This document shows, piece after piece, positions 2,982 through 55,978 of a DNA stretch of 64,000 nucleotides. A program made the translations under genes and the position numbers. Source of the stretch: Leptolyngbya sp. BL-A-14. Lineage in GTDB: Bacteria > Cyanobacteriota > Cyanobacteriia > Leptolyngbyales > Leptolyngbyaceae. The notes below the pieces were generated by a model. It did not search any database. It was not told the DNA's origin and saw only the letters and a list, made by a program, of their open reading frames with translations. Positions within the stretch are counted from its first letter, which is position 1, and the number at the start of each line of letters is the position of its first letter. The stretch lies in NCBI GenBank assembly GCA_041937185.1, contig CP166621.1, positions 2,196,571 to 2,260,570 on the forward strand, given 5' to 3'.

Positions 2982-3094
2982 CAAAGTTTTTGGTTGTTAG
3001 TGGCTAGTTGTTAGACGGAGTTGGTTCAAAAACCGGGTTCCGCTGCGAATAGCTGTTGTTGAAACACCGAAGTAGCTAACTCATAGGGTGGGCA

Positions 3095-8883: not shown

Positions 8884-9133
8884 GAAACAGAATCCTGGTA
8901 GAGCAGAGAGGAAGGGGCAAGGGAAGTTTTTGGTTGCTAGTTGAGAAAGGGAAGCAGAGAGAGGACGTTTTGAGCTTTGAGTTGAGGCAGTTTTTAGTGG
9001 TTGGTTTTTAGTTTTTAGGACTGGAACAAGCGCTGCTTTTCTCTCCTTCTAACAACTAACAACTAACAACCAAAAACCCTTCTGCCCTCTGCCTCCTGCC
9101 TTCTTCTAGCAACTAGCAACCCAAAACGAACAA
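8884..9133. repeat. composite STRR-like repeat element with conserved AGCGCT core
   Basis: The whole 250-bp spacer is heptamer runs (GTTTTTA, AACAACT, CCTCTGC) around the core GGAACAAGCGCTGCTTTTCTCTCCTTCTAA. Confidence 0.8.
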
Positions 9134-45124: not shown

Positions 45125-47368
45125 ATGGGTATACCGTTTGTTTTAGATGTTGCGATCGGTCTAGTTTTCATCTATTTAATTCTGAGCCTTCTCGCTTCGG
45201 AATTACAGGAGTTGCTGACGACGCTTTTTCAATGGCGAGCAAAACATCTAAGAGATGCGATCGAAGTTTTTTTGGCAGGCGGTAGTGGCACTCCAGAAGA
45301 AGAGAAAGTCAGGGATTTAGTGAGCAAACTTTATGACGATCCACTGCTTAAAAACGTCAATCAAGAGTCAAAAGGATTGATTACACGGGGTGCCAGAGAA
45401 ATTACTCGTTGGCTGATTCCAGGTAATCGTAAAGGCGCTTTTGGGTTTAATCAATCAAGTGGACCTTCATACATTGCTGCAGAAACATTTTCAACCTCCT
45501 TGCTAGAGCGTTTGGGCATGGCAACGTTAGCCAAAAAGCTGACCGAAGTCAGGTTAGAAAAGTTTGCCGCCAGAATTGTTGGTAGCTTCAAAGTGCAAGC
45601 CGACGCCGCCTCGATCAGCGATTGGGAGAAGGGCAAAATCAGAGTGATTGCTGAGAAAGCAAATAAGGATTTGAGCAGCGATGCCAACTTTGCAGCGCTT
45701 GTGGACGAGTATAACGATATTCTCAATGATTTCAGGGCTGAGGAAATAACGTTAGACACAAGCGTTGAACGGATGGGGGAAAGTCTTGAAGCGTACATTG
45801 CTAGCTATCCACTTACCAATACGCCCACAACCAATACGCCCGCAAATGTATCTGCTGCACCCCAGAATGCCAATCCATCAGTAGCCCCGGTTGAAGAAGG
45901 CGCAGGTGATGGGGTCGCCACTGAAGCTCCCCAAGCTGAAAATGTTTCTGCTGGTAGTGCGCCTGCTAGTGAGCCAACTCCTATGAGTCAAGTGTCAGTT
46001 AGCGGTGACGATCCCAACTATTTCCCAAGGCGATTACAAGCGTTAAAGCAAAGTCTGTTTGGTGACAATAACGAAAGGGCGATTCTGTCTGGAGGTTTGC
46101 GTCCAAGTCTTGCAGAAATTGCCCAGTTGGTGGATGAAAGCAGTTCAACCTATCAAGAGGTGATGCAAGGCTATGAGTCGATGCTTGCCAAAGCACAACC
46201 CTTAGAAGCATTAGTGAACCCTGAACTTGAACAAGAGCTATTGGAAGCCTATCCAGAAGCTATTGAAAAAGAGATTGTGCAAGCCTATCCAGAAACGGTT
46301 GAAGAGCAACTTGTAGCGATCGCGCCAGACGTTTTTAAGAGCGTTGAACAGCAGTTGACTGAGCGTCGTCGCAAAATCTATCGCGCTAAAGTAAACCCTC
46401 AAGCTAATTTATTAAAGCAGCAGAAACGAACCATTCATAACGCTTTAGGTCAACTGAGCACGGAACAACGACAGCAGGTTTTAAGCGCCGTATTGAATCA
46501 ATTCAGTGGGGATGAGCGGACACTTATTATTAGTAGAAGTCTAGAACAACTGAGCAATGAGCAGCGTTATGCTGTGATTAATATTGTCTTCGTTAAATTG
46601 GGTCTCACGAATGCCGATCGCTCCGTTTATGATGACTATCAAACGTACAAGGTGATTCGACAAGCATTAGAAAAACTGCCGAACTCGGTCAAAGACAGTT
46701 TTGCTATTCTTGCTCGACGGGCGCAGTCTAAAGTACAGCAAGCAAGCCGCGATATTAACCAGTTTCGTGTGGAAGTAGGAGAATGGTTCGATCGCTCAAT
46801 GGAGCGAGCTTCTGGTGTTTACAAGCGCAATGCAAAAGGTGTCGCGCTTTTAATTGGCTTAGCGCTAGCAAGTGCTACAAACTCAGATGCCTTTTTCATT
46901 GTTAATCGCTTAGCCAACGATGAGAACTTACGCAAAGTGATCACCGACCAGGCGGCGCAGTTGCCTCAAAGAGATCCGTCAGCCAAAGTGAGACCACTCG
47001 ATCAGGAGCTTAGGGATCTCAAGCAACAGACCGATATAGCACTTAACGATCTCTCGCTTCCGATCGGCTGGAAACCAGAAAACTTTTCCAACCAATTTGA
47101 GTGCCCACCGCCCCCCTTTGCCCCATCTGGCGGTGATTCCTGTAACGTGTTTTCTAACCAAGCAGGAGCGATGAATGCGGGTTCCATCGTTCAACTCATC
47201 GCATCGAAACCGATCGACCTCCTCAAGCTGCTGATTGGTTGGATCGTGAGTGGTCTGGCGATCTCGATGGGCGCACCGTTCTGGTTTGATCTGCTAGGCA
47301 AGATTATGAATGTACGCAACTCAGGCAGCAAGCCGCCATCGCCAGAAACGAAGGAAACGGCGAAGTAG
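45125..47368 (+). CDS. large hypothetical membrane protein with acidic repetitive central region
   Basis: 747 aa; TM helix at the N-terminus (VAIGLVFIYLILSLL) and two near the C-terminus; central E/Q-rich coiled and low-complexity region. Confidence 0.6.
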   Translation: MGIPFVLDVAIGLVFIYLILSLLASELQELLTTLFQWRAKHLRDAIEVFLAGGSGTPEEEKVRDLVSKLYDDPLLKNVNQESKGLITRGAREITRWLIPGNRKGAFGFNQSSGPSYIAAETFSTSLLERLGMATLAKKLTEVRLEKFAARIVGSFKVQADAASISDWEKGKIRVIAEKANKDLSSDANFAALVDEYNDILNDFRAEEITLDTSVERMGESLEAYIASYPLTNTPTTNTPANVSAAPQNANPSVAPVEEGAGDGVATEAPQAENVSAGSAPASEPTPMSQVSVSGDDPNYFPRRLQALKQSLFGDNNERAILSGGLRPSLAEIAQLVDESSSTYQEVMQGYESMLAKAQPLEALVNPELEQELLEAYPEAIEKEIVQAYPETVEEQLVAIAPDVFKSVEQQLTERRRKIYRAKVNPQANLLKQQKRTIHNALGQLSTEQRQQVLSAVLNQFSGDERTLIISRSLEQLSNEQRYAVINIVFVKLGLTNADRSVYDDYQTYKVIRQALEKLPNSVKDSFAILARRAQSKVQQASRDINQFRVEVGEWFDRSMERASGVYKRNAKGVALLIGLALASATNSDAFFIVNRLANDENLRKVITDQAAQLPQRDPSAKVRPLDQELRDLKQQTDIALNDLSLPIGWKPENFSNQFECPPPPFAPSGGDSCNVFSNQAGAMNAGSIVQLIASKPIDLLKLLIGWIVSGLAISMGAPFWFDLLGKIMNVRNSGSKPPSPETKETAK

Positions 47369-47477: not shown

Positions 47478-48896
47478 CTACTCCCTCACCGCCATTTTCT
47501 CTAATGCCGTTTGCAGGTCTTGCGTTAGGGTTGTCACGGCTTGTTTGGCGTTGCGTCGGTTGCCTTCGTAATCTTGCCAGCGATCGGACACTGAAAGCGG
47601 TTGCCCGATCGTCACAATGGCTTTTTGCTTGCCAAGTTTCGGGCGATCGAGGGGTGTGCCGCCTTTAATGCGGGCAATCATATCCCACATCAGCAGGGCT
47701 GTTTCAGCAAAGCGTTCAGCCGTCGGCTTTTCGAGCACGTACTTACCTGTAACGGCAACAAAACTTTCAACGACGCGCATATGCCAGAGGCGTAGATCGG
47801 CTTCTTCAGCCAGTCGATCGGCAAGTCCATGTTCCAGCAGTGAAACCTCCTCAATCGGCTTCAGATCTTCTCGATAGATGTAGTCCCAACCCGCTTGCTC
47901 CAACCGCCGACAGCGATCGATCACGCTACCTTTGGGCTGCAAGTTGAAATACTGCTCTGCGACTTTTAATGCGGCATCCATCAGCGCGTTGAGGCGAGTG
48001 GCAAACGCTTCGTGAGAAATTGGTGCGTCAAGGTCTGCTGGTGGTGCAGTGCTGCCGTCCTTTACGGTTGCTAGCGGCTGGTGATAGAAACGGCTATAGA
48101 ACTGCTCCATCACCGAGAGTAAGTGTTCACCCAGACGATACAGCCGTTTGTAAAGAAGTGGCTCTGCAGTTGCATCTGCGTGACGGATCGGGCTACTGGC
48201 TAAGCCTGTATCGAGTTCCAGAGTAGTTAAAAGCTGATCGATCGCGCTCCAGGGTGGCGAAATGTAGTGATATTGAATCCCGATCGGCACGACGAGAACT
48301 GTTTCCGATCGATTGGCTTTGTGCAGATCTTCGGCACACCAAAAGGCAAGTTGGCTAAGCCCAGGTTCTAGCGGGCTCACAATTTCGGTATGCCCGTTGG
48401 TCGCCCCTTCGGGAGCAGCAGCCAGTGGCAGCGAACCGTTTGCAAATAGATCGCGGGCAGAACGTAACCCAACGCGATCGACTTTGCCCCGATGAATTGG
48501 CGTACCGCCCAGTCGTGAATAGAGCCAACCCATGAGCGAACCCGCCCAGAGTGGAATGCCGCGATCGTAAATAAAATGGGCATGCAGTGGACGGTTGAGC
48601 GCAACCTTTTGCTGACGCGCAACCTTCGGCACGAGGCGAGCCAGCAAATAAGCCAGCACAAAGGGATCGGTCGCACTCGGATGCCGAAACGCCATGAGAA
48701 AGCGAATGTTACCCGCCTGAAATTGACGATACAGATCGACCAACACCTCAACGTTTTCGGCTTCAACCCGCCGAATCGATGTCCGCGATCGCATAATCAA
48801 CGGCAACAGCCATTGCAACACTTGAACAACGGTCATGCTGAGCTGAGGCGGAATGAATTCTAGCGGTGGTTGAACTTGGCGAATGAGGCGAGGCAA
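47478..48896 (-). CDS. lysophospholipid/glycerol-phosphate acyltransferase (PlsC-like) family protein
   Basis: HX4D motif (FRHPSATD) and PEG motif (AAPEGATNGH); 472 aa with a long C-terminal extension. Confidence 0.65.
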   Translation of the reverse strand: MPRLIRQVQPPLEFIPPQLSMTVVQVLQWLLPLIMRSRTSIRRVEAENVEVLVDLYRQFQAGNIRFLMAFRHPSATDPFVLAYLLARLVPKVARQQKVALNRPLHAHFIYDRGIPLWAGSLMGWLYSRLGGTPIHRGKVDRVGLRSARDLFANGSLPLAAAPEGATNGHTEIVSPLEPGLSQLAFWCAEDLHKANRSETVLVVPIGIQYHYISPPWSAIDQLLTTLELDTGLASSPIRHADATAEPLLYKRLYRLGEHLLSVMEQFYSRFYHQPLATVKDGSTAPPADLDAPISHEAFATRLNALMDAALKVAEQYFNLQPKGSVIDRCRRLEQAGWDYIYREDLKPIEEVSLLEHGLADRLAEEADLRLWHMRVVESFVAVTGKYVLEKPTAERFAETALLMWDMIARIKGGTPLDRPKLGKQKAIVTIGQPLSVSDRWQDYEGNRRNAKQAVTTLTQDLQTALEKMAVRE

Positions 48897-49115
48897 GGGA
48901 AGTCTCCTTGGTGGTGGTGGAAGGCAGGAGGCAGAAGGCAGGAGGCAGAAGGCAGAGGGCAGAAGGCAGGAGGTTTTTGGGTTGTTAGCGGTTAGTGGTT
49001 AGAAGGAGAGAAAATGCAGCGCTTGTTCTAGCTCAAAACTCAAAACCAACCACTCAAAGCTCAAAACTCTCTAGCGAAGCGGCACGAAGTGCTACTCAAA
49101 ACTCTCTTTCGCTCT
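48897..49115. repeat. composite STRR-like repeat element with conserved AGCGCT core (reverse orientation)
   Basis: GGCAGAA/GGCAGGA runs, GTTAGTG runs, core TTAGAAGGAGAGAAAATGCAGCGCTTGTTCT, AAAACTC runs. Confidence 0.8.
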
Positions 49116-50471
49116 CTAAAAGATAAACATCAGCTTCAGTTTCCACGTTTCCGCCTCGCGGATCAGTTCGATTTGGCAGATAAATTCACGAAAGTAGAAG
49201 CGGCGTTCAGGTTCGGAAAGGTCGAGCCAAAACTGGGGAATAGAGACAGTTTGAGCGATCGCTTGCAAATTAACGGGCGGTAATTGTGCCAGTTTGCTTT
49301 GGAGCACAGCTATTTCAGTGCGGAGTTTGTAGGCGCGGAGGTCGGCGGTTTCTTGATCAAGCACACCACTGGTTACCAACGGAGGCAGTTGGGTCAAGAT
49401 TGCTTGCTTCGCGGCGATCGCACCGTTGATGCCTTGCTTTATGGTGCCCACATCCGGTAGTGCAACATCGGCGACTGCACGTGGTAAATCTTCGCAGATG
49501 CGCTCAATGGTTTGCTGAAGAATGGCATCGTACTCGATCGCCTTGCATTTGGGTGCTCGGGAACATTGAGTGGGTCGCAGATAGAGGTATTCGCGATCGC
49601 GGCGAGGGGCTGAAACACGCGTCACGGTCATGGGCGATCGACATTCACTGCACACCACTAAGCCTGCTAGAGAACGCGGTGCGCTGGCAGTGCGAGGCGG
49701 TAGCTGACGGTTGCGTCTTAGCAGACGATCGACCTGCGCTGCTTCTTCGCGAGAGATGATGGGAGTATGGGTATCGCTGATCAGTTCGCCGTTTTGATAG
49801 GCTGTATCGCCCCGATAGACAGGGTTCGTTAGCCACCGGTGCCCCGTAGAGACGGCAATCTTTTTGCTGTACTTTTTGGCTAAGTAACGCACCGCTTCAC
49901 GGAGGGAACCGTAGAGCAAAAATTGATCGAAAAAGTCTTTGACAACGGGAGCCGTGCTGCGATCGACCACATAACGAGCTTTGCTGCGACGATAGCCGTA
50001 GGGCGCTTTCCCAGGTGGCGGTAAAGCATTGACGCGATTCTGGGCGTGCCCTTGACGAATGCGGCGGCTGCGTTGTTCGCGCTGCACTTGCTGCAACAGC
50101 CTGAGCAAATCTGCTTGAAGGTCGGCTCCTTTCAAAAGGGGCTGCTCGGCCAGAGTTGGATGTATTGGGCTAGTTGCTTGCTCTGTCACAATGAGACGGA
50201 CGCCCAGCGTTTCCAGTTCAGCCAGGCGATCGCCGACTGCCTGAACAGAATCGCCCAATTCTTCCACGCGCCGAATGAGCAGATAATCCGCTGGTTCTGC
50301 CTGACAGTCTTCGAGAAGCTCTTGCCACTGCTGCCGAGCGATCGCACCTCTCTTGGGCACGGTTGCGATGGCTAAATCCTGGTAGACGCGATCGACCTCC
50401 CAACCCCACAGGCTCTGATCAGGTGTCGGTTCTAACAACGGATCACTGTAGAGATAGGCAATAATTTTCAT
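49116..50471 (-). CDS. large serine recombinase family protein with divergent catalytic motifs
   Basis: N-terminal resolvase-like domain (KIIAYLYSDP; ADYLLIRRVEELGDS), recombinase domain and zinc-ribbon (CSEC ... C ... C); start overlaps the upstream GNAT stop by 4 nt. Confidence 0.75.
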   Translation of the reverse strand: MKIIAYLYSDPLLEPTPDQSLWGWEVDRVYQDLAIATVPKRGAIARQQWQELLEDCQAEPADYLLIRRVEELGDSVQAVGDRLAELETLGVRLIVTEQATSPIHPTLAEQPLLKGADLQADLLRLLQQVQREQRSRRIRQGHAQNRVNALPPPGKAPYGYRRSKARYVVDRSTAPVVKDFFDQFLLYGSLREAVRYLAKKYSKKIAVSTGHRWLTNPVYRGDTAYQNGELISDTHTPIISREEAAQVDRLLRRNRQLPPRTASAPRSLAGLVVCSECRSPMTVTRVSAPRRDREYLYLRPTQCSRAPKCKAIEYDAILQQTIERICEDLPRAVADVALPDVGTIKQGINGAIAAKQAILTQLPPLVTSGVLDQETADLRAYKLRTEIAVLQSKLAQLPPVNLQAIAQTVSIPQFWLDLSEPERRFYFREFICQIELIREAETWKLKLMFIF

Positions 50472-51052
50472 CGTGCCGAAGGTGGTCGGTCTGCCACCAT
50501 AAGCCAGCTATCCCGATAAACGCCCTCATGCAGTTCATGCTCAGGCAGTTGTTTGACTTTGATAAAGCCACATTTCTCGTAACAGCGGATAGTACGGGTA
50601 TTACTAACGTGCGGGTCTATCAATACCTTATCAGCTTGCAGATGCTCAAACAGGTAGATCAAAGCGGCTGACAGCGCTTTCGTACCAATGCCTTGATTCC
50701 AACAACGCGGCTCGCCAATAAACAGGTCAATGGCATAAAGCCGAAGACCTTCGCCACGACCATAGCCACCATAGCTTTGCTGATCAGCCTCTGTAAGGTG
50801 ATAGTACTGTAAATAGCCGATCGCCTCAGTTTGGTACAGAATCAAACACGGAATGACATTCTCCTCTGCTAAAACGTTGAGACGATACTCTTCTAAAATT
50901 CTTGCTAATGGAAACGGATTATCTCTGCCTTCATAAAATTCCAGCACTGTTGTATCAGTGAGCCAGTTTGCCATCCGTTGATAATCCTGCATGTCGTCTT
51001 GCATGAGACGAATAGCCACATCGTCCTGCTGGATTAACACTCCACTAACCAA
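50468..51052 (-). CDS. GNAT family N-acetyltransferase, AAC(6')-Ib-like
   Basis: 194 aa; resembles aminoglycoside 6'-N-acetyltransferase type Ib (VAIRLMQDD ... WNQGIGTKAL ... IRCYEKCGF). Confidence 0.8.
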   Translation of the reverse strand: MVSGVLIQQDDVAIRLMQDDMQDYQRMANWLTDTTVLEFYEGRDNPFPLARILEEYRLNVLAEENVIPCLILYQTEAIGYLQYYHLTEADQQSYGGYGRGEGLRLYAIDLFIGEPRCWNQGIGTKALSAALIYLFEHLQADKVLIDPHVSNTRTIRCYEKCGFIKVKQLPEHELHEGVYRDSWLMVADRPPSAR

Positions 51053-51057
51053 AACTG

Positions 51058-51420
51058 CTAAACCTCGCCCAACTCAATGACATTGCCATCGGGGTCCTGA
51101 GTAAAAAGTGCAGCACGACCAGACGCACTCGTTTGAATCGGGCAATTGTGAGCCAAAAGACGCTCTTTGGCGGCGTCTAAACTGGCAACAGAAAAGGCAA
51201 GGTGGCGGTTACGTCCCCATTTTTCAGGGTTATCCAGTTCAGTGGTGAACGCATCGGCAACAATCAAATGGATCTGAAAGCCAGCGACTTCGTACCAGGC
51301 TCCAGGAAAACGGAGCACGCGATCGACTTTCTCTAACCCCAGCACCGAGCCGTAAAACTGCTCCGATCGCTCCAGGTCTGAAACCAACAGGGCAGCGTGA
51401 AGGCAGCGAGTAATCTTCAT
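51058..51420 (-). CDS. VOC family protein (glyoxalase/bleomycin/fosfomycin-resistance-like fold)
   Basis: MKITRCLHAALLVSDLERSEQFYGSVLGL N-terminal module; alternative upstream start at 51468. Confidence 0.7.
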   Translation of the reverse strand: MKITRCLHAALLVSDLERSEQFYGSVLGLEKVDRVLRFPGAWYEVAGFQIHLIVADAFTTELDNPEKWGRNRHLAFSVASLDAAKERLLAHNCPIQTSASGRAALFTQDPDGNVIELGEV

Positions 51421-51478
51421 GGTGATCAACCTGTGAGCATCACTCTCCAGAATACCGGAACTCATCATAGCAACGCTT

Positions 51479-52783
51479 TTAGCTGTGCATAATCTCCATC
51501 AAGCAGTCGGCAATCCTTTTGGCGGCTCCGGGTGTGCCCATGCGACGATGACCGTTTTCGGCGATCGTTTGTAGCGCATCGGGATTTTGCAACAGCGATT
51601 GGATCACAGCCGCCACACGATCGGGTTCCTTCACCAACAGAACGGAGGCACCTAATAAACGAGTTTGTGCTTCAGCAAAACGAGGCGTAAACTGCGGACC
51701 TTTGCCTGGAAGGATGATCGCAGGTTTACCCAAGCCGACAAACTGTTCCGTTGCGGTGCCTGCCATCGCGATCGCTACATCGGCTCGATGCAAACACTCT
51801 GCAAACCGTCGTTGCGCCAACACCAGCGTCGATTTGCGATCGCCCAAGCCCACCGTGTAGGAATCTTCCGTCAACTGCTGCCAGCGATACGCCATCAATG
51901 CCTTGTGCAGCAAGTCTACATCCAGTCCGGGCGCGATCGCGGCTAAGAGCGTGAGCGGTCGTGACATCTGGGCAATCATCCCATTCACCGCTTGCAAAAT
52001 CGTTTCCCAATTGGCGTAAGCCTCCGGTGGACGGGAACCGGGAATGAGAGCGATTGTTAAGGCTAAAGGCTGAAGGCTGAAGGCTAAATCTTGACTTTTA
52101 TCCTTTATCCCTAAGCCTTTATCCTTCTCTTCCCACTCCAGCCCATCCATCATTGGATTTCCCAAATCAAACGCTGGAATGTTTCGCCGTCGAAGGCTCG
52201 TTGCCGTGATGGTGTCTCTAGGGAACACCGCTTTGCAGTGTAGATGGCTCATCAGCCACCGCTCCCACGGAAGGTAAATACACCCCGTCCAGCGCTCAAG
52301 GCGATCGTCCCACCAGGAGTCACGCGGCAACCAGCCCCCCTCATCGCGCAGATAGTATTCTGACTTCGCCGTACCCACAAACGCGTAGGGAAGCCCACTG
52401 AGACGGGCGAAGAGGAGGGGGACGATATCGCCAACCGCGAGGATGAGGGAGTGGGGAGTGGGGAATGGGGAGTGGGGAGCGGCGGTTTCCTTTGCCCAGG
52501 CTTTGATGGCGCGGAGTTGTGCCAGCGTGAGTTGAAGTAACCCACCTCGAATGTCGCGCGCAAGCTGCCGCCCATCCTGATAGATGAAACCACCAGACGG
52601 CATGGTCTTGACGGAGCCAATGAGGGAAATGCCATTGTCGATATAGGCATGACCTTCACCCACGATCGGCAAAGCGGCAAGTTCTGGTGGATTGGGCTGT
52701 TGCTGAAGTTCACGCAAGATGCGGAGGGCGATCGCATCTTCACCATGACCGTTGCTAAGACAGAGTACGCGCATGAGCAGCAA
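51479..52783 (-). CDS. lipid-A-disaccharide synthase-related protein (LpxB-like glycosyltransferase)
   Basis: 434 aa; N-terminal LSNGHGEDAIA motif of the LpxB-related family; carries two in-frame heptamer-repeat insertions. Confidence 0.65.
   Translation of the reverse strand: MLLMRVLCLSNGHGEDAIALRILRELQQQPNPPELAALPIVGEGHAYIDNGISLIGSVKTMPSGGFIYQDGRQLARDIRGGLLQLTLAQLRAIKAWAKETAAPHSPFPTPHSLILAVGDIVPLLFARLSGLPYAFVGTAKSEYYLRDEGGWLPRDSWWDDRLERWTGCIYLPWERWLMSHLHCKAVFPRDTITATSLRRRNIPAFDLGNPMMDGLEWEEKDKGLGIKDKSQDLAFSLQPLALTIALIPGSRPPEAYANWETILQAVNGMIAQMSRPLTLLAAIAPGLDVDLLHKALMAYRWQQLTEDSYTVGLGDRKSTLVLAQRRFAECLHRADVAIAMAGTATEQFVGLGKPAIILPGKGPQFTPRFAEAQTRLLGASVLLVKEPDRVAAVIQSLLQNPDALQTIAENGHRRMGTPGAAKRIADCLMEIMHS
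52056..52137. repeat. STRR-like heptamer array inside CDS (in-frame)
   Basis: GGCTAAA, GGCTGAA x2, GGATAAA-type runs; translated as EWEEKDKGLGIKDKSQDLAFSLQPLA inside the LpxB-like ORF. Confidence 0.8.
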
Positions 52784-52997
52784 AAGACTGAGGACTGATG
52801 GCTAGAATAGGGCAGATAGACGACCAACAGACCAATTAGTGCCCTTTAGCTTTAATTTTGTCCCACTGAATACTGAACTTAAGCAGTTGTCCTGGCGCGA
52901 TAGACTGACAGTATGAAACTCTTACTGATGGGATTCATTCGCAGGTACAGGATGTTTCTTTCGCCGTGATTACCGCAGTGTGTCCGTTGAAGCAAGA

Positions 52998-53483
52998 TTA
53001 GTGGGCTGGAGATTGTTTGGGTGCGGGTGCTTCTAACGTTCCTGTAAAGGGGATTTCGCCAGGAGCGGAGCTTAAGCTGAGCGTACCGTTGAGAGATTGT
53101 TGCGCGATCGTCCCCTGAATTTTGACATCGCCCTGGCATTTAGGTAGGTAGCTGGCATCTCCCTGTAAGGTTAACCGTTGATTCTCCCAATTTCCCGTCA
53201 TCGAAGGACGTTCTGTTGCCCGTTTTTCCAGCGCTTCTGCAGTCTCAGACGCAAGCAGCGATCCGGTTAAATAAATCCCAGACTGCTGCACCAGTAGAAT
53301 TAACTGCTCAGACTTCAAGCATCCTGGCAAAGCCTGGGCTGGAATTTGGTAGCGACCGTCGATTTTTTGAGCCGCTTTCAGATTTGCTTCGCCGTAGGCT
53401 GTCACAACGCTAAACAAAGCTACAACAACGGCGATCGCGCCACCGTAGAAACTGAGAGATTTGAGATTGAAGTGATTGCCCAT
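52998..53483 (-). CDS. hypothetical secreted/membrane-anchored protein
   Basis: Start at ATG 53483 (MGNHFNLKSLSFYGGAIAVVVALFSVV signal/TM); the upstream part of the ORF is translated GAGTTTT repeats. Confidence 0.5.
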   Translation of the reverse strand: MGNHFNLKSLSFYGGAIAVVVALFSVVTAYGEANLKAAQKIDGRYQIPAQALPGCLKSEQLILLVQQSGIYLTGSLLASETAEALEKRATERPSMTGNWENQRLTLQGDASYLPKCQGDVKIQGTIAQQSLNGTLSLSSAPGEIPFTGTLEAPAPKQSPAH

Positions 53484-53782
53484 GAAAAATAGTTTTGAGT
53501 TTTGAGTTTTGAGTTTAGTCAGTTTTAAAGCCTTCGGCATGGCTTCGCTAGAGGGGTTGGTTTTCGTTTTTAGCTGGAACCAGCGCTACCTTTTCTCTCC
53601 TTCTAAGCACTTTTCTTGAATGCCCTCTCTTGTATGCCTGAAAGGCTTTAGGGCTATACCACTAACGACCAAAAACCCTTCTGCCTTCTGCCTTCTGCCT
53701 TCTGCCTTCTGCCTTCTGCCTTCTGCCTTCTGCTTTCTGCCTTCTGCTTTCTGCCTTCTGCTTTCTGCCTTCTCCCCCATCC
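53484..53782. repeat. composite STRR-like repeat element with AGCGCT core plus a TTCTGCC array of about 15 copies
   Basis: GAGTTTT x4; core GGAACCAGCGCTACCTTTTCTCTCCTTCTAA; (CCTTCTG)n/(CTTTCTG)n array from 53677 to 53782. Confidence 0.85.
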
Positions 53783-55978
53783 CTACGTAATCGCCTCTGA
53801 CTGATCGGCTTCCCGCCCTGTGCTGTCTCCTGCTGTGCCTAAAACAGACGTTAAGTGTGCTGTGACCTGGCTGTAGCGACGGGTAATCAAGAGTGAAGAG
53901 TGGCACTCTACCGCAAGTTGATCGGCATAAAACCCAAGGGTTTGACGTTCTAAACCCCATTCTCGACTGGCTCCTGCGATCGTCAGGTCTACGGTCGCCG
54001 ACGCTTTGACCACGGCTTCAAGCGGGTTACTGGACTCTACTTGAGGTGTATGAATCCGATCGCGCACTGAGGCAGGTAACTGTTCCATCAGCGTCCGAAA
54101 TTCGTATGTGTGAGCGTTGACTTGCTGATTTTGAGTGACGCTCAGAATGGTCAGCGTAGCCTCTGGGGAATTTACCAAAATGCGAAGGGCAATTTCCAGT
54201 CCAAGATCGTTGTGGCTGTTGGCAACATAGGGCACTAGCAGATTTTGGAGCTTTCCTGGCTGACGATCAACAAAGACTGCAACATCTGTACGTGCTGTGC
54301 TGAGAATTTGCCCCACGCGACCGCCCAGGCGATTGCGACTAAAAGCTGGGCGATGCCATCCCAACAGGACTAGATCAACCCGATCGACCTCGGCAACCCG
54401 AACGGTCTCTTGTGCCACATCCGTCGCAACTCGAATAATGGGGCGCACCACTGAACGAACTTGTGCGGGCTCCAGGCTGGCAACGAGTTCTGTCATCCGA
54501 CGGGTTCGCTCGGCAATGAGCCGTTCTGCTTCGGCAGGGGTACTGCTAAACGCATAGTCCTCATCGAGTTGGATCAGGCTGAGGGGGTAAATGGCAGCAG
54601 AGGTCATGATGGGAGATTCCAGGTCGCTGCCCAGCGCGATCGCCACCGCCAGTTGAATGAGACCCTTCTGGCTGGCAGGGTTTGCGATGGGAACCAGAAT
54701 CCGGTAGTCCGGTTCAGTTTCGTTGACGATCGGCTCCACCACATCCTGGCGAATCAGTCGTTTGGGATAGACCCATTCCAGCAGCGGCGAGGTCATAAAG
54801 GTCGTCACCAACGCCATGATGACCAGCATTGTAAAGAGCAACGGCGAGATTACGTGCAGGCTTAACCCAATGTTCAATACAATCAGTTCTGTTAGGCCAC
54901 GGGTATTCATCAGCCAACCCAAGGCTGCGGCTTCTCGGGGCTCGATTTTAGAAACCCTGGCGGCATAATAAGTGCCAAAATACTTGCCCACGATCGCCAC
55001 AGCAACCACTAGGCCACACAGCAACCACAAAAAGGGACTGTTAAGCAACCCGATTTGAGTGCGTAAGCCGCTATAGGCAAAGAAAATGGGCAGTAAAAAA
55101 GTCAGCACAAAGTCTTCTGTTTTTTGCGCCAGTTCTCGCGTTAACCCGGCATGCTTGGGCATCACTGCACCAATCAAAAAGGCACCAAAAATCAGGTGAA
55201 TGCCAATTAACTCAGTAATCAGCGCTGAGACGACGACCCCAATGTAAATCACAGCCAGTACAAACTGACTTAAACGCCCGCTGCGATTGTAATACGTAGC
55301 AAACGTCTTCAAAAAACGGCGACCTACAGTCACCATAAAAGCGATGTAGAGAATAGATAACAGCACAGTTGGAATCGCACCCGCCATGCTGTTCGTACGG
55401 GTCACTGCGATCGCCAACGCGAGTAAACACCATGCTGTCACGTCATCGACGGCCGCGCAGGTCAGTGCCATCGTCCCCAACCGTGTGCTTTGAAGGTTGT
55501 TTTCTGTAATAATGCGCGCTAAAACGGGGAACGCCGTGATGGACATTGCAGCCCCCAAAAACAGCGCAAAGGCCGTAAACGAAACGCTGCCGCTTGACAC
55601 CAATGGATAGAGCAATAGAGACAACACCGTCCCCAGCGCAAAGGGCACCAAAATGCTGACATGCGAGACTAAAACAGCCACGTCAAGCTGACTTTTCAGA
55701 TATTTAGGGTCCAGCTCAAGCCCGATCAAAAACATGAAAAAGATCAGCCCTATCTGAGAAAGAACATTCAGATAGGGAATTGTTTCGGGTGGAAAAAGGC
55801 CAGTCGCTACAACTGGCGCAAGCAAGCCCAGTAAAGAGGGGCCAAGCATCACCCCGGCGACAATTTCACCAATGACTAGGGGTTGCTTAATTCGACGGAA
55901 CCCCAAACCAACCAACCGGGAAAGCCCGATGACAACGACAATTTCGATGAGAACCTGAACAACGATTTCGAGTTTCAT
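53783..55978 (-). CDS. CPA2-family cation/proton antiporter with C-terminal regulatory (Usp-like) region
   Basis: 731 aa; N-terminal roughly 400-aa Na+/H+ exchanger-type polytopic domain ([15 protein letters not shown]), C-terminal soluble tandem domains. Confidence 0.85.

What the first reader, a model, noticed from the sequence alone, without database searches (positions are those of the whole stretch)
49116..52783. Operon coupling an LpxB-like protein, a VOC protein and an AAC(6')-like GNAT to a large serine recombinase with altered catalytic residues
Four minus-strand genes are packed with gaps of 10 nt, 5 nt and a 4-nt overlap: the LpxB-related protein, the VOC protein, the AAC(6')-Ib-like acetyltransferase and the serine recombinase. 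A VOC (bleomycin/fosfomycin-resistance fold) plus aac(6') plus resolvase is the gene content of mobile resistance cassettes. Here it is chromosomal, HIP1-containing and translationally coupled. The recombinase keeps the Ser in the right place (YLYSDP, where resolvases have YxRVSTxxQ), but Arg-8 and the DRLGR motif appear to be substituted (ELGDS). That suggests a catalytically altered, possibly domesticated recombinase. No att-like boundaries or inverted repeats were seen; only heptamer repeats flank it.
Basis: partly seen in the sequence, partly recalled or inferred. Interest (0 to 1): 0.7.

Follow-up and report, generated by a model that had tools for sequence, protein, structure and literature searches.

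The report
Catalytically dead serine integrase, cyanobacteria-wide
The "recombinase" belongs to an apparently undescribed, vertically inherited cyanobacterial family of phage-type integrase look-alikes that has lost the cutting residues but is strongly conserved, and it usually sits beside a small metalloenzyme gene; the supposed four-gene resistance operon around it is a local accident of gene order.

Summary
The four minus-strand ORFs and their spacings exist as described.

The 451-aa protein (49116-50471) has the full large-serine-recombinase architecture. Profile alignment places Tyr at R8, Asp at the Ser-10 nucleophile, Glu at R68 and Asp at R71.

These substitutions hold across 98 family members from many cyanobacterial orders. 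The family is sharply separated from canonical integrases, tracks taxonomy, has dN/dS of about 0.06, and is absent from 72,556 plasmids.

The only widely conserved partner is the VOC gene directly upstream (65 of 80 genomes). The AAC(6')-like GNAT is a clade-specific insertion between VOC and the recombinase homologue. The LpxB-related gene is adjacent in only three close relatives.

Nothing supports a mobile resistance cassette. The flanking ~150-nt inverted repeat belongs to a dispersed repeat family.

Most likely this is a domesticated, non-catalytic integrase that works as a site-specific DNA-binding or bridging protein. A functional tie to the VOC enzyme is possible, and neither the function nor the tie is demonstrated. 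I found no description of the family in the searchable literature.

The parts
49116..50471 (-). Catalytically inactive large-serine-recombinase homologue (451 aa). It has an acidic resolvase-fold N-terminal domain, a basic alpha-E helix and recombinase domain, a 4-Cys zinc ribbon and a coiled coil.
   Evidence: - Pfam: PF00239 (only profile positions 31-140 matched), PF07508 and PF13408.
- XisF model: 121.6 bits, far below the 375 cutoff.
- Foldseek top hits are the SPbeta, A118, Bxb1 and PhiC31 integrases.
- hhalign against canonical enzymes: E 1e-61, with Y8/D10/E71/D74 at the R8/S10/R68/R71 positions.
- dN/dS about 0.06.
50468..51052 (-). GNAT acetyltransferase related to AAC(6')-Ie/Im/Ian. 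It is a clade-specific insertion between VOC and the recombinase homologue, and its stop overlaps the recombinase start (ATGA).
   Evidence: - PF13523.
- AAC(6')-Ian 142 bits against a cutoff of 400.
- PDB 6bff and 4qc6, E about 1e-34.
- Present at this position only in L001, L004, L006, L008 and L009.
- GC 0.467 and no HIP1 site.
- NCBI's model is 183 aa; I infer a start near 51019.
51058..51420 (-). VOC-fold metalloenzyme gene, the conserved upstream partner of the recombinase homologue. The longest ORF extends to 51468, but the conserved start is MKIT at 51420.
   Evidence: - PF00903, 48 bits.
- Same-strand upstream neighbour in 65 of 80 genomes, 21 of them with a gap of 20 nt or less or an overlap.
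- Start inferred.
- H8, H73 and E116 are invariant in a 7-sequence alignment.
51479..52783 (-). TIGR03492 lipid-A-disaccharide-synthase-related glycosyltransferase. It is a neighbour only in the closest relatives. The likely real start is ATG at 52774.
   Evidence: - TIGR03492, 478 bits against a cutoff of 219.
- Adjacent only in L001, L003 and L004.
- Alignment A8.
- Sequence read directly.
48913..49069 (.). Left copy of a dispersed intergenic repeat: GAAGGCA heptamers, about 90 nt of unique core, then CTCAAAA heptamers. It lies between the recombinase stop and the acyltransferase start.
53491..53784 (.). Right, inverted copy of the same repeat, with a 45-nt insertion and a longer heptamer array.
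   Evidence: Further copies at 8989-9076 and 2987-3020.
47478..48896 (-). PF01553 acyltransferase. It is the downstream same-strand neighbour of the recombinase homologue in about 15 of 80 genomes.
45125..47368 (+). 747-aa membrane protein with no Pfam match. A homologue lies convergent to and downstream of the recombinase homologue in about 36 of 80 genomes.
   Evidence: conserved C-terminal block at 47235-47325.

Best explanation
The gene at 49116-50471 is not a working recombinase.

Shown:
- It belongs to a discrete, vertically inherited cyanobacterial clade of large-serine-recombinase (phage integrase type) homologues.
- The Ser-10 nucleophile and the three catalytic arginines R8, R68 and R71 are replaced by Asp/Glu, Tyr, Glu/Asp and Asp respectively.
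- Y6, D36, R45, the alpha-E helix, the recombinase domain, the 4-Cys zinc ribbon and the coiled coil are all kept, and every domain is under strong purifying selection.
- The core of the N-terminal domain has become strongly acidic, while alpha-E and the recombinase domain stay basic.

Inferred:
- The protein can no longer make the covalent phosphoserine intermediate.
- It most likely acts as a dimeric, site-specific DNA-binding or DNA-bridging protein, that is, a regulator or architectural factor. This would resemble the non-catalytic resolvase subunits at accessory res sites, or TnpR acting as a repressor.
- It is usually co-expressed with the VOC metalloenzyme encoded immediately upstream, which suggests a functional tie, for example control of or by that enzyme's chemistry.

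In this genome and its closest relatives, an AAC(6')-like GNAT gene has been inserted into the VOC-recombinase junction and an LpxB-related gene lies upstream. These are local neighbours, not parts of a conserved system, and the locus is neither mobile nor a resistance cassette.

My sub-confidences are:
- about 0.9 for catalytically dead by the serine-recombinase mechanism;
- about 0.85 for an ancient domesticated vertical family;
- about 0.5 for a non-catalytic DNA-binding role;
- about 0.45 for a functional link to VOC.
For: Architecture:
- Pfam finds Resolvase, Recombinase and Zn_ribbon_recom.
- In the AF2 model (pLDDT 71.8) the secondary-structure order is consistent with a resolvase fold plus a long alpha-E helix; this is my reading.
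- Foldseek top hits are the SPbeta, A118, Bxb1 and PhiC31 integrases. The N-terminal domain matches Sin and gamma-delta catalytic domains.

Lost residues:
- MAFFT alignment with canonical enzymes and hhalign (probability 100, E 1.3e-61) give Y8/R8, D10/S10, E70/D67, E71/R68 and D74/R71.
- The family N-terminal profile against gamma-delta and Tn3 resolvase in the PDB gives the same D67/R68/R71 mapping and shows D36 and R45 retained.
- Over 98 members: position 8 is Y in 97; position 10 is D77/E14; position 71 is E87/D10; position 74 is D85/E5/N4/G3.
- Olorunniji & Stark 2009 (PMC2794168) report that mutating Y6, R8, S10, D36, R68 or R71 greatly reduces cleavage, while no mutation strongly inhibited site I binding.

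Domestication:
- In the representatives search, full-length family members score above 250 bits at 43% identity or more. Canonical recombinases follow at about 80 bits and 25-29% identity.
- Relatives are 60-90% identical across Nostocales, Oscillatoriales, Leptolyngbyales, Chroococcidiopsidales and Thermosynechococcaceae.
- The NJ tree recovers the taxonomic groups.
- dN/dS is 0.05-0.13 in every domain, including the N-terminal domain.
- The gene holds five HIP1 sites.
- There are no plasmid matches and no PADLOC matches.

Charge:
- The N-terminal core has a median net charge of -8 (pI 4.4), against +1 (pI 7.9) in canonical enzymes.
- The recombinase domain is +11 with pI 10.3.

VOC link:
- VOC is the same-strand upstream neighbour in 65 of 80 loci.
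- In 21 of them the gap is 20 nt or less or the genes overlap (ATGA), while genes further upstream differ.
- The adjacency is also present in a 47%-identical member (L083).
Against: - No DNA target was found. There is no conserved non-coding block near the genes and no shared upstream motif beyond promoter-like elements.
- DNA binding is inferred only from domain retention and charge.
- The VOC link is imperfect. 15 of 80 loci, and 5 of 7 divergent members, lack an adjacent VOC.
- About 12 lineages tolerate unrelated genes or IS elements inserted between the two genes. A convergent third neighbour is also conserved. The adjacency could therefore be inherited synteny rather than a functional operon.
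- A hydroxyl residue (S53/T34) is common at position 9, and the conserved acidic cluster could form a new active site.
- Transcription was not tested.
- The structural model is of moderate confidence, with the N-terminal domain at pLDDT 50-80.
Confidence: 0.6

Rival explanations
1. The protein is non-catalytic and domesticated, but its adjacency to VOC has no functional meaning. An ancestral element integrated next to the VOC gene. Large serine integrase genes normally sit beside the att site (general knowledge). Only the integrase gene survived, and the pairing persists by inherited synteny.
For: - The VOC-recombinase spacer varies widely. It is filled with heptamer repeats or MITE-like sequence and accepts unrelated inserted genes in about 12 lineages.
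- A convergent, non-operonic neighbour (the ORF747 homologue) is also conserved in about 36 of 80 loci.
- Five of seven divergent members lack an adjacent VOC.
Against: - Adjacency survives across orders whose other flanking genes differ completely.
- 21 loci have gaps of 20 nt or less or ATGA overlaps.
- Two divergent members sit next to genuine glyoxalase I genes, in different arrangements (L083 gloA-VOC-REC; L085 REC-gloA).
Confidence: 0.25
2. The protein is still an enzyme acting on DNA through a remodelled active site. Either S/T9 acts as a shifted nucleophile, or the conserved acidic cluster (D10, E14, D32, E70, E71, D74) forms a Toprim-like metal site. It might then act on the inverted repeats that bracket the locus.
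For: - Position 9 is Ser or Thr in 87 of 98 members. The acidic replacements are themselves highly conserved rather than random.
- The N-terminal domain is under purifying selection.
- An imperfect ~150-nt inverted repeat flanks 49070-53490.
- The fold similarity between serine recombinase and Toprim domains is recalled from my own knowledge and was not tested here.
Against: - R8, R68 and R71, each required for cleavage in Tn3 resolvase (PMC2794168), are all absent.
- Position 9 is not invariant (Y, N, L, V and W also occur). Thr is not, to my knowledge, a known nucleophile in this family.
- The inverted repeat is a dispersed repeat with other copies in the window, and it is not conserved in relatives.
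- Gene orientation relative to the downstream acyltransferase is the same in every relative that has one.
Confidence: 0.08
3. This is the first reader's model: a chromosomal copy of a mobile resistance cassette (VOC + aac(6') + resolvase, plus an LpxB-like gene) expressed as one functional operon.
For: - The ORFs are tightly spaced and the region has fewer terminator-like sites than shuffled controls.
- The GNAT is about 40% identical to AAC(6')-Ian, Im and Ie.
- GNAT has lower GC and no HIP1 site.
Against: - The four genes are unlinked outside a few close relatives.
- The recombinase homologue is absent from plasmids.
- GNAT homologues at 50-62% identity are common in Nostocales. In the species present in both lists they lie more than 6 kb from the recombinase homologue.
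- VOC fails every Fos and glyoxalase I cutoff.
- There are no specific boundaries.
Confidence: 0.03
4. The gene is a decaying remnant of an integrase, with no function.
For: The catalytic residues are lost.
Against: - The reading frame is intact at 427-489 aa in all full-length relatives.
- dN/dS is about 0.06.
- Identity is 60% or more across orders.
- The replacement residues are themselves conserved.
Confidence: 0.02

Closest known systems
Large serine recombinases / serine integrases (A118/LI, SPbeta, Bxb1, PhiC31; cyanobacterial XisF)
   Same: - Same domain order: resolvase-fold N-terminal domain, alpha-E helix, recombinase domain, zinc ribbon with inserted coiled coil.
- These enzymes are the best structural matches.
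- The profile-profile alignment is full-length.
- XisF is the best named NCBIfam hit.
   Different: - It lacks S10, R8, R68 and R71.
- The N-terminal core is acidic.
- There are no att sites and no mobile-element context.
- It is vertically inherited and absent from plasmids.
- It scores 121.6 bits against the XisF cutoff of 375.
Non-catalytic roles of active small serine recombinases: Sin, Tn3 and gamma-delta resolvase subunits at accessory res sites, and TnpR as a repressor
   Same: This is a precedent for serine-recombinase dimers acting purely as DNA-binding or architectural proteins (PMC2428073, listed). Catalytic-residue mutants of Tn3 resolvase still bind site I (PMC2794168). TnpR acting as a repressor is from my own knowledge.
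   Different: Those proteins are also active enzymes at the crossover site and belong to transposons. Here the whole family appears permanently inactive and is a host gene.
Exapted but active serine recombinases (Hin-type invertases; developmental excisases such as XisF and SpoIVCA)
   Same: They are host-recruited serine recombinases that are inherited with the chromosome. Those covered by the review PMC8987985 are all catalytically active.
   Different: Those keep catalysis and act on defined invertible or excisable segments. This family has lost the catalytic residues, and no rearranging segment is associated with it.
AAC(6')-Ie/Im/Ian aminoglycoside 6'-N-acetyltransferases
   Same: The GNAT shares the fold. 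It aligns with 6bff and 4qc6 over nearly the full length at E about 1e-34, and tblastn against plasmid-borne aac(6')-Ian gives about 40% identity.
   Different: It is below all curated cutoffs (142 against 400; 132 against 340). Its nearest homologues are chromosomal cyanobacterial GNATs. The substrate is unknown.
Glyoxalase I / Fos / bleomycin-resistance VOC proteins
   Same: It has a single VOC module (PF00903). His, His and Glu are invariant at ligand-type positions.
   Different: It is only 25-27% identical to genuine cyanobacterial GloA. By my reading of that alignment, His replaces the second ligand Glu of GloA. It fails the GloA, FosA and FosB cutoffs.

Membership tests
Large serine recombinase (functional enzyme) | Resolvase-fold N-terminal catalytic domain followed by a long alpha-E helix | tested here: met
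   PF00239 scores 37.3 bits against a cutoff of 23.3, but only profile positions 31-140 are matched. Foldseek matches Sin and gamma-delta catalytic domains at TM 0.6-0.68. The family profile hits gamma-delta and Tn3 resolvase at E about 1e-5.
Large serine recombinase (functional enzyme) | Serine nucleophile (gamma-delta/Tn3 S10) in the YxRVS(T/S)xxQ motif | tested here: not met
   D10 aligns with S10, and S9 aligns with V9. Position 10 across 98 members is D77/E14/N3/H2/A1/S1.
Large serine recombinase (functional enzyme) | Catalytic arginines R8, R68 and R71 | tested here: not met
   These positions hold Y8, E71 and D74. Family-wide counts are Y97, E87/D10 and D85/E5/N4/G3. Their requirement for cleavage is shown in PMC2794168.
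Large serine recombinase (functional enzyme) | Recombinase domain, plus a zinc ribbon with four Cys and a coiled coil | tested here: met
   PF07508 scores 49 bits and PF13408 28 bits. C274, C277, C303 and C309 are invariant. The model has paired helices at 341-367 and 373-396.
Large serine recombinase (functional enzyme) | Association with att sites or a mobile or excisable element | tested here: not met
   The flanking inverted repeat is a dispersed repeat. The gene tree tracks taxonomy. There are no plasmid matches, and phage integrases are only about 23% identical.
XisF (NCBIfam NF041201) | Score at or above the curated equivalog cutoff | tested here: not met
   121.6 bits against 375, matching residues 42-435 only.
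AAC(6') aminoglycoside acetyltransferases | Score at or above the curated NCBIfam cutoffs for an AAC(6') family | tested here: not met
   The best hits are AAC(6')-Ian at 142 against 400, the AAC(6')-Ie family at 132 against 340, and AAC(6')-Ib at 77 against 400.
AAC(6') aminoglycoside acetyltransferases | Aminoglycoside 6'-N-acetylation activity or resistance phenotype | not testable with these tools
   There is only sequence similarity, about 40% identity to AAC(6')-Ian on plasmids and E about 1e-34 to 6bff and 4qc6.
VOC superfamily | VOC (beta-alpha-beta-beta-beta) module with metal-ligand residues | tested here: met
   PF00903 scores 48.3 against a cutoff of 20.6. H8, H73 and E116 are invariant in a 7-sequence alignment.
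Fosfomycin/bleomycin resistance or glyoxalase I proteins | Score at or above the curated cutoffs for FosA, FosB or GloA | tested here: not met
   FosA 21.8 against 250, FosB 21.7 against 171, glyox_I 26.9 against 120. Identity to genuine GloA is 25-27%.
TIGR03492 lipid-A-disaccharide-synthase-related protein | Score at or above the curated cutoff | tested here: met
   478.2 bits against 219.2, aligned full-length. Neither Pfam nor NCBIfam gave an LpxB hit for this protein.
Mobile resistance cassette / transposon | The same gene set is linked in unrelated hosts or on plasmids, with defined ends | tested here: not met
   Linkage of all four genes is seen only in L001 and L004. There are no plasmid matches for the recombinase homologue and no specific ends.
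Single operon of four genes | Co-transcription | not testable with these tools
   Gaps are short and no sigma-70-like internal promoter was found on the minus strand. However, conserved start sites enlarge two of the gaps, and promoter-like conserved sequence precedes VOC.

The most novel reading that the evidence does not exclude
The conserved acidic residues that replaced the Ser and Arg active site (D/E10, E14, D32, E70, E71, D74) are not just a scar. They would form a new metal- or ligand-binding pocket on the resolvase fold, placed after beta-1 and beta-3 where Toprim domains carry their Glu and DxD motifs (the Toprim comparison is from my own knowledge). The family would then be an integrase scaffold converted either into a metal-dependent DNA-processing enzyme or into a ligand-gated DNA-bridging switch. 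Its input would be tied to the chemistry of the neighbouring VOC or glyoxalase-type enzyme. That would make it a phylum-wide host function built from a phage integrase.
Probability: 0.1. Interest if true: 0.9.

Novelty: new variant of a known kind. Interest (0 to 1): 0.6.

Why it matters
Large serine integrases are studied almost only as mobile-element enzymes and genome-engineering tools. The host-recruited serine recombinases covered by the review I consulted (PMC8987985) are all still catalytically active.

This family differs in several ways:
- It is kept under strong purifying selection across most cyanobacterial orders I sampled.
- All four key catalytic residues are replaced in a conserved way.
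- The N-terminal domain has reversed its charge.

As far as I could find, it would be the first example of a permanently non-catalytic, exapted serine integrase.

It points to an unrecognised DNA-binding or chromosome-organising factor in cyanobacteria, and possibly to a regulatory link with a conserved VOC metalloenzyme of unknown substrate. It also offers a natural binding-only integrase scaffold.

Practically, automatic annotations such as "recombinase family protein" or "DNA invertase Pin-like" for these genes are misleading. They should not be taken as evidence of mobile elements or resistance islands.

Tried and rejected
1. Regulatory motif upstream of VOC.
   - The top k-mers turned out to be the VOC start codon region (ATGCAAATTAC = MQIT).
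   - After correcting the starts, only clade-specific promoter-like elements remained, for example GCGGTTAAAAT.
   - VOC-recombinase spacers are heptamer or MITE-like filler with no shared site.
   - blastn of the locus against distant relatives found only coding blocks.
2. The inverted repeat as an inversion or att boundary. Rejected because the repeat has other copies in the window and is not conserved in relatives.
3. Defence-system membership. There were no PADLOC hits for six proteins.
4. ncRNA or riboswitch. Rfam gave only a sub-threshold MIR408 hit on heptamer repeats.
5. RecA hits for the VOC protein in the PDB search. These are an artefact of summing 8.8-bit matches over concatenated RecA repeats.
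6. The N-terminal domain alone against the PDB by single sequence gave only chance hits such as archaeal polymerases. A family profile was needed.
7. Finding an orthologue with a locus tag in a model strain (PCC 7120, PCC 6803, PCC 7942), to connect with mutant or expression data.
   - Cluster look-ups gave only generic names.
   - The AFDB50 fold library was unavailable.
8. Eight successful literature searches found no description of the family.
9. Glyoxalase I adjacency was seen in only 2 of 87 loci. I kept it as a weak hint only.

Full report
OBSERVATION.

The four minus-strand ORFs exist as stated: 51479-52783 (434 aa), 51058-51468 (136 aa), 50468-51052 (194 aa) and 49116-50471 (451 aa). 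On the longest-ORF reading the gaps are 10 nt and 5 nt, followed by a 4-nt overlap.

Profile searches identify them as follows:
- a TIGR03492 "lipid-A-disaccharide synthase-related protein" (478 bits, cutoff 219);
- a VOC/Glyoxalase protein (PF00903);
- a GNAT whose best named relatives are AAC(6')-Ian, Ie and Im (132-142 bits, cutoffs 340-400; AAC(6')-Ib only 77 bits);
- a protein with Resolvase, Recombinase and Zn_ribbon_recom domains.

The window is 100% identical to a 7.19-Mb contig of the MAG Leptolyngbya sp. BL-A-14. HIP1 occurs 61 times against 1.1 expected.

Several details need correction.
- The conserved start of the VOC gene in 60 relatives is M-[QK]-I-T, which is 51420 here. Nucleotide conservation with distant genomes also starts there (51064-51422). 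The LpxB-like/VOC gap is therefore probably 58 nt.
- NCBI's GNAT model is 183 aa, so that gap may be about 38 nt. The start position is my inference.
- HIP1 sites lie in the recombinase homologue (5) and the LpxB-like gene (4), with none in GNAT or VOC. GNAT has GC 0.467 against 0.53-0.56 for its neighbours.
About 150 nt at 48913-49069 and 53491-53784, roughly 85% alike, combine heptamer arrays with a unique core. Further copies at 8989-9076 (intergenic) and 2987-3020 show it is a dispersed repeat family. It is not conserved at this position in relatives.

THE RECOMBINASE HOMOLOGUE.

Pfam's Resolvase model matches only its positions 31-140. The segment that carries the nucleophile motif is not matched. 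The XisF model scores 121.6 bits against a cutoff of 375.

An AlphaFold2 model (pLDDT 71.8) shows a secondary-structure order that I read as a resolvase-type N-terminal domain, a long alpha-E helix, a helical recombinase domain, a beta-rich zinc ribbon and a helical hairpin. Foldseek's best PDB matches are the SPbeta, A118/LI, Bxb1 and PhiC31 integrases (E down to 4e-17). The N-terminal part also matches Sin and gamma-delta catalytic domains.

I made a multiple alignment with canonical large serine recombinases and a profile-profile alignment of 19 family members against 18 canonical enzymes (probability 100, E 1.3e-61). Both give the same ungapped register at the N-terminus.

| gamma-delta/Tn3 residue | Residue here | Status |
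|---|---|---|
| Y6 | Y6 | kept |
| R8 | Y8 | lost |
| S10 (nucleophile) | D10 | lost |
| D36 | D32 | kept |
| R45 | R46 | kept |
| D67 | E70 | conservative change |
| R68 | E71 | lost |
| R71 | D74 | lost |

A profile of the family's N-terminal domain hits gamma-delta and Tn3 resolvase in the PDB at E about 1e-5, with the same mapping of the DRLGR motif.

Olorunniji & Stark (PMC2794168) showed that Y6, R8, S10, D36, R68 and R71 are the residues whose mutation greatly reduces cleavage. They also found that no mutation strongly inhibited binding to site I.

Four of these six residues are therefore replaced here, including the nucleophile.

A FAMILY, NOT A ONE-OFF.

An exhaustive HMMER search of 1.84 billion representatives shows a discrete cluster. 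Full-length members score above 250 bits at 43% identity or more. The next proteins are ordinary large serine recombinases at about 80 bits and 25-29% identity.

Named members are all cyanobacterial. They include Stenomitos, Kovacikia, Phormidesmis, Alkalinema, Chroococcidiopsis, Thermosynechococcaceae, Nostoc, Anabaena, Nodularia, Calothrix, Scytonema, Microcoleus, Coleofasciculus and Laspinema.

Over 98 members:
- position 8 is Y in 97;
- position 10 is D77/E14/N3/H2/A1/S1;
- position 71 is E87/D10/Q1;
- position 74 is D85/E5/N4/G3/Q1;
- position 9 is S53/T34 with other residues also present.

The four zinc-ribbon cysteines and a PPPGxAPYGY motif are invariant in the 19-member alignment.

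Other properties point the same way.
- dN/dS against seven close relatives is 0.06-0.08 overall and 0.07-0.13 for the N-terminal core. dS is near saturation, so the values are approximate.
- An NJ tree of 81 sequences recovers the Stenomitos clade, Nostocales, Microcoleus, Coleofasciculus, Laspinema and Pantanalinema as clades. The only extras are unnamed MAGs.
- tblastn finds nothing in 72,556 plasmids and only ~23%-identical integrases in 50,697 phage records. There are no PADLOC hits.
- The N-terminal core has a median net charge of -8 (pI 4.4) against +1 (pI 7.9) for canonical enzymes. The recombinase domain is +11 with pI 10.3.

Together these show an ancient, vertically inherited, selectively maintained protein that cannot use the serine-recombinase mechanism.

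THE NEIGHBOURS.

In 80 genomes fetched around the homologue, tblastn with the window's proteins gave these results:
- VOC lies on the same strand upstream in 65. The gap is 20 nt or less, or an ATGA overlap, in 21. It is 21-200 nt in 28.
- GNAT is present only in L001, L004, L006, L008 and L009.
- The LpxB-like gene is present only in L001, L003 and L004.
- The PF01553 acyltransferase lies downstream in about 15.
- A homologue of the 747-aa membrane protein lies convergent and downstream in about 36.

Genes upstream of VOC differ widely between lineages.

Where the VOC-recombinase gap is long, it holds unrelated genes in different lineages: signal peptidase I, a small membrane protein, a CAP-domain protein, a restriction-endonuclease-like protein, IS200 TnpA, TnpB, and a reversed decarboxylase-like gene (these labels are my reading of the translations). 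The window's GNAT is one such insertion.

GNAT homologues of 50-62% identity are widespread in Nostocales, with a few in Chloroflexi. For the four species present in both lists (Scytonema HK-05, Anabaena azotica, A. cylindrica UHCC 0172, Nostoc MS1), no copy lies within 6 kb of the recombinase homologue. The closest solved structures are AAC(6')-Im and AAC(6')-Ie.

In more divergent members:
- VOC is again immediately upstream in L083 (47% identity), preceded there by a genuine glyoxalase I gene.
- L085 has parA-like, then the recombinase homologue, then glyoxalase I.
- Five others have no VOC neighbour.

The four-gene "operon" is therefore a local configuration. The only candidate functional partner is VOC, and even that link is statistical.

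MECHANISM.

Shown: loss of the catalytic residues, retention and basic character of the DNA-binding domains, purifying selection, vertical inheritance, and frequent tight coupling to VOC.

Inferred: the protein binds specific DNA as a dimer through alpha-E and may bridge sites through its coiled coil, without cutting. It would act as a regulator or architectural protein. Precedents are resolvase subunits at accessory res sites (PMC2428073, listed) and Tn3 catalytic mutants that still bind site I.

I could not find its target. There is no conserved non-coding block in the locus, no shared operator-like motif, and no Rfam element.

The conserved acidic residues at the former active site are not explained by simple loss. 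They may form a metal or ligand site. That is the most novel reading, and I give it about 10%.

COMPARISON WITH KNOWN SYSTEMS AND NOVELTY.

The protein is a structural member of the large-serine-recombinase superfamily. It fails the defining catalytic and mobile-context tests. It is not XisF.

The review of exapted mobile-element genes that I consulted lists only catalytically active recruited serine recombinases (PMC8987985). Eight literature searches found no description of this family. The searchable library lacks most subscription-journal papers, so this absence is not proof.

I rate it a new variant of a known kind. It is interesting for the pseudo-enzyme and exaptation questions and for cyanobacterial biology. 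The resistance-cassette idea should be dropped.

Noticed in passing
window 48913-49069, 53491-53784, 8989-9076, 2987-3020: A dispersed intergenic repeat family. Each copy has a unique core of about 90 nt (for example TTAGAAGGAGAGAAAATGCAGCGCTTGTTCTAGCTC) flanked by heptamer arrays (GAAGGCA and CTCAAAA). Two inverted copies bracket the locus studied. The element is possibly MITE-like.
   Followed up: partly
window 52059-52126 and 52447-52479 (inside the LpxB-like gene): Heptamer tandem arrays lie in frame inside the coding sequence. They encode low-complexity loops (KDKGLGIKDKS; PHSPFPTPHS) that are length-variable among close relatives. This matches the roughly 38 residues the protein has beyond the TIGR03492 profile.
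   Followed up: partly
window 53483-53540 (5' end of ORF 52998-53540): The first 19 codons of this 180-aa ORF are encoded by an AGTTTTG heptamer array. The real start is probably the internal Met at 53483. The protein has no Pfam or NCBIfam match.
   Followed up: no
L007, L008, L010, L015, L034, L037, L050, L072, L075 (gap between the VOC and recombinase-homologue genes): The same intergenic junction holds different single genes in different lineages, including IS200 TnpA (L050) and a TnpB (L072). The junction looks like a recurrent insertion spot. Whether this is more than tolerance of an intergenic spacer is unknown.
   Followed up: partly
L083:4135-4563 and L085:5206-5610: Genuine glyoxalase I (gloA-like, 78% identical to each other) lies next to the recombinase homologue in two divergent lineages, in different arrangements: gloA-VOC-REC, and parA-like-REC-gloA.
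   Followed up: partly
window 45125-47368 (+): A 747-aa membrane protein with no Pfam family has a highly conserved C-terminal segment (47235-47325 matches 24 distant genomes at the DNA level). Its homologue is a conserved convergent neighbour of the recombinase homologue in many Nostocales.
   Followed up: no
window 51421-51470; L001, L003, L004, L006-L008 upstream of VOC: The sequence GTTCCGGTAT(T/G)CTG(G/A)A is conserved about 30-45 nt upstream of the VOC start, even where the reading frame of the longer ORF is broken (L006). This points to a promoter or regulatory element rather than an N-terminal extension.
   Followed up: no
L024, L026, L029, L072, L076, about 25 nt upstream of the VOC start: The Scytonema/Tolypothrix loci share a perfect 7-2-7 palindrome, ATGATAT-TG-ATATCAT, in the VOC promoter region. 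It is clade-specific, and its function is unknown.
   Followed up: no
window 53783-55978 (-): A Na+/H+ exchanger family transporter fused to a C-terminal universal stress protein (Usp) domain lies just beyond the right repeat.
   Followed up: no
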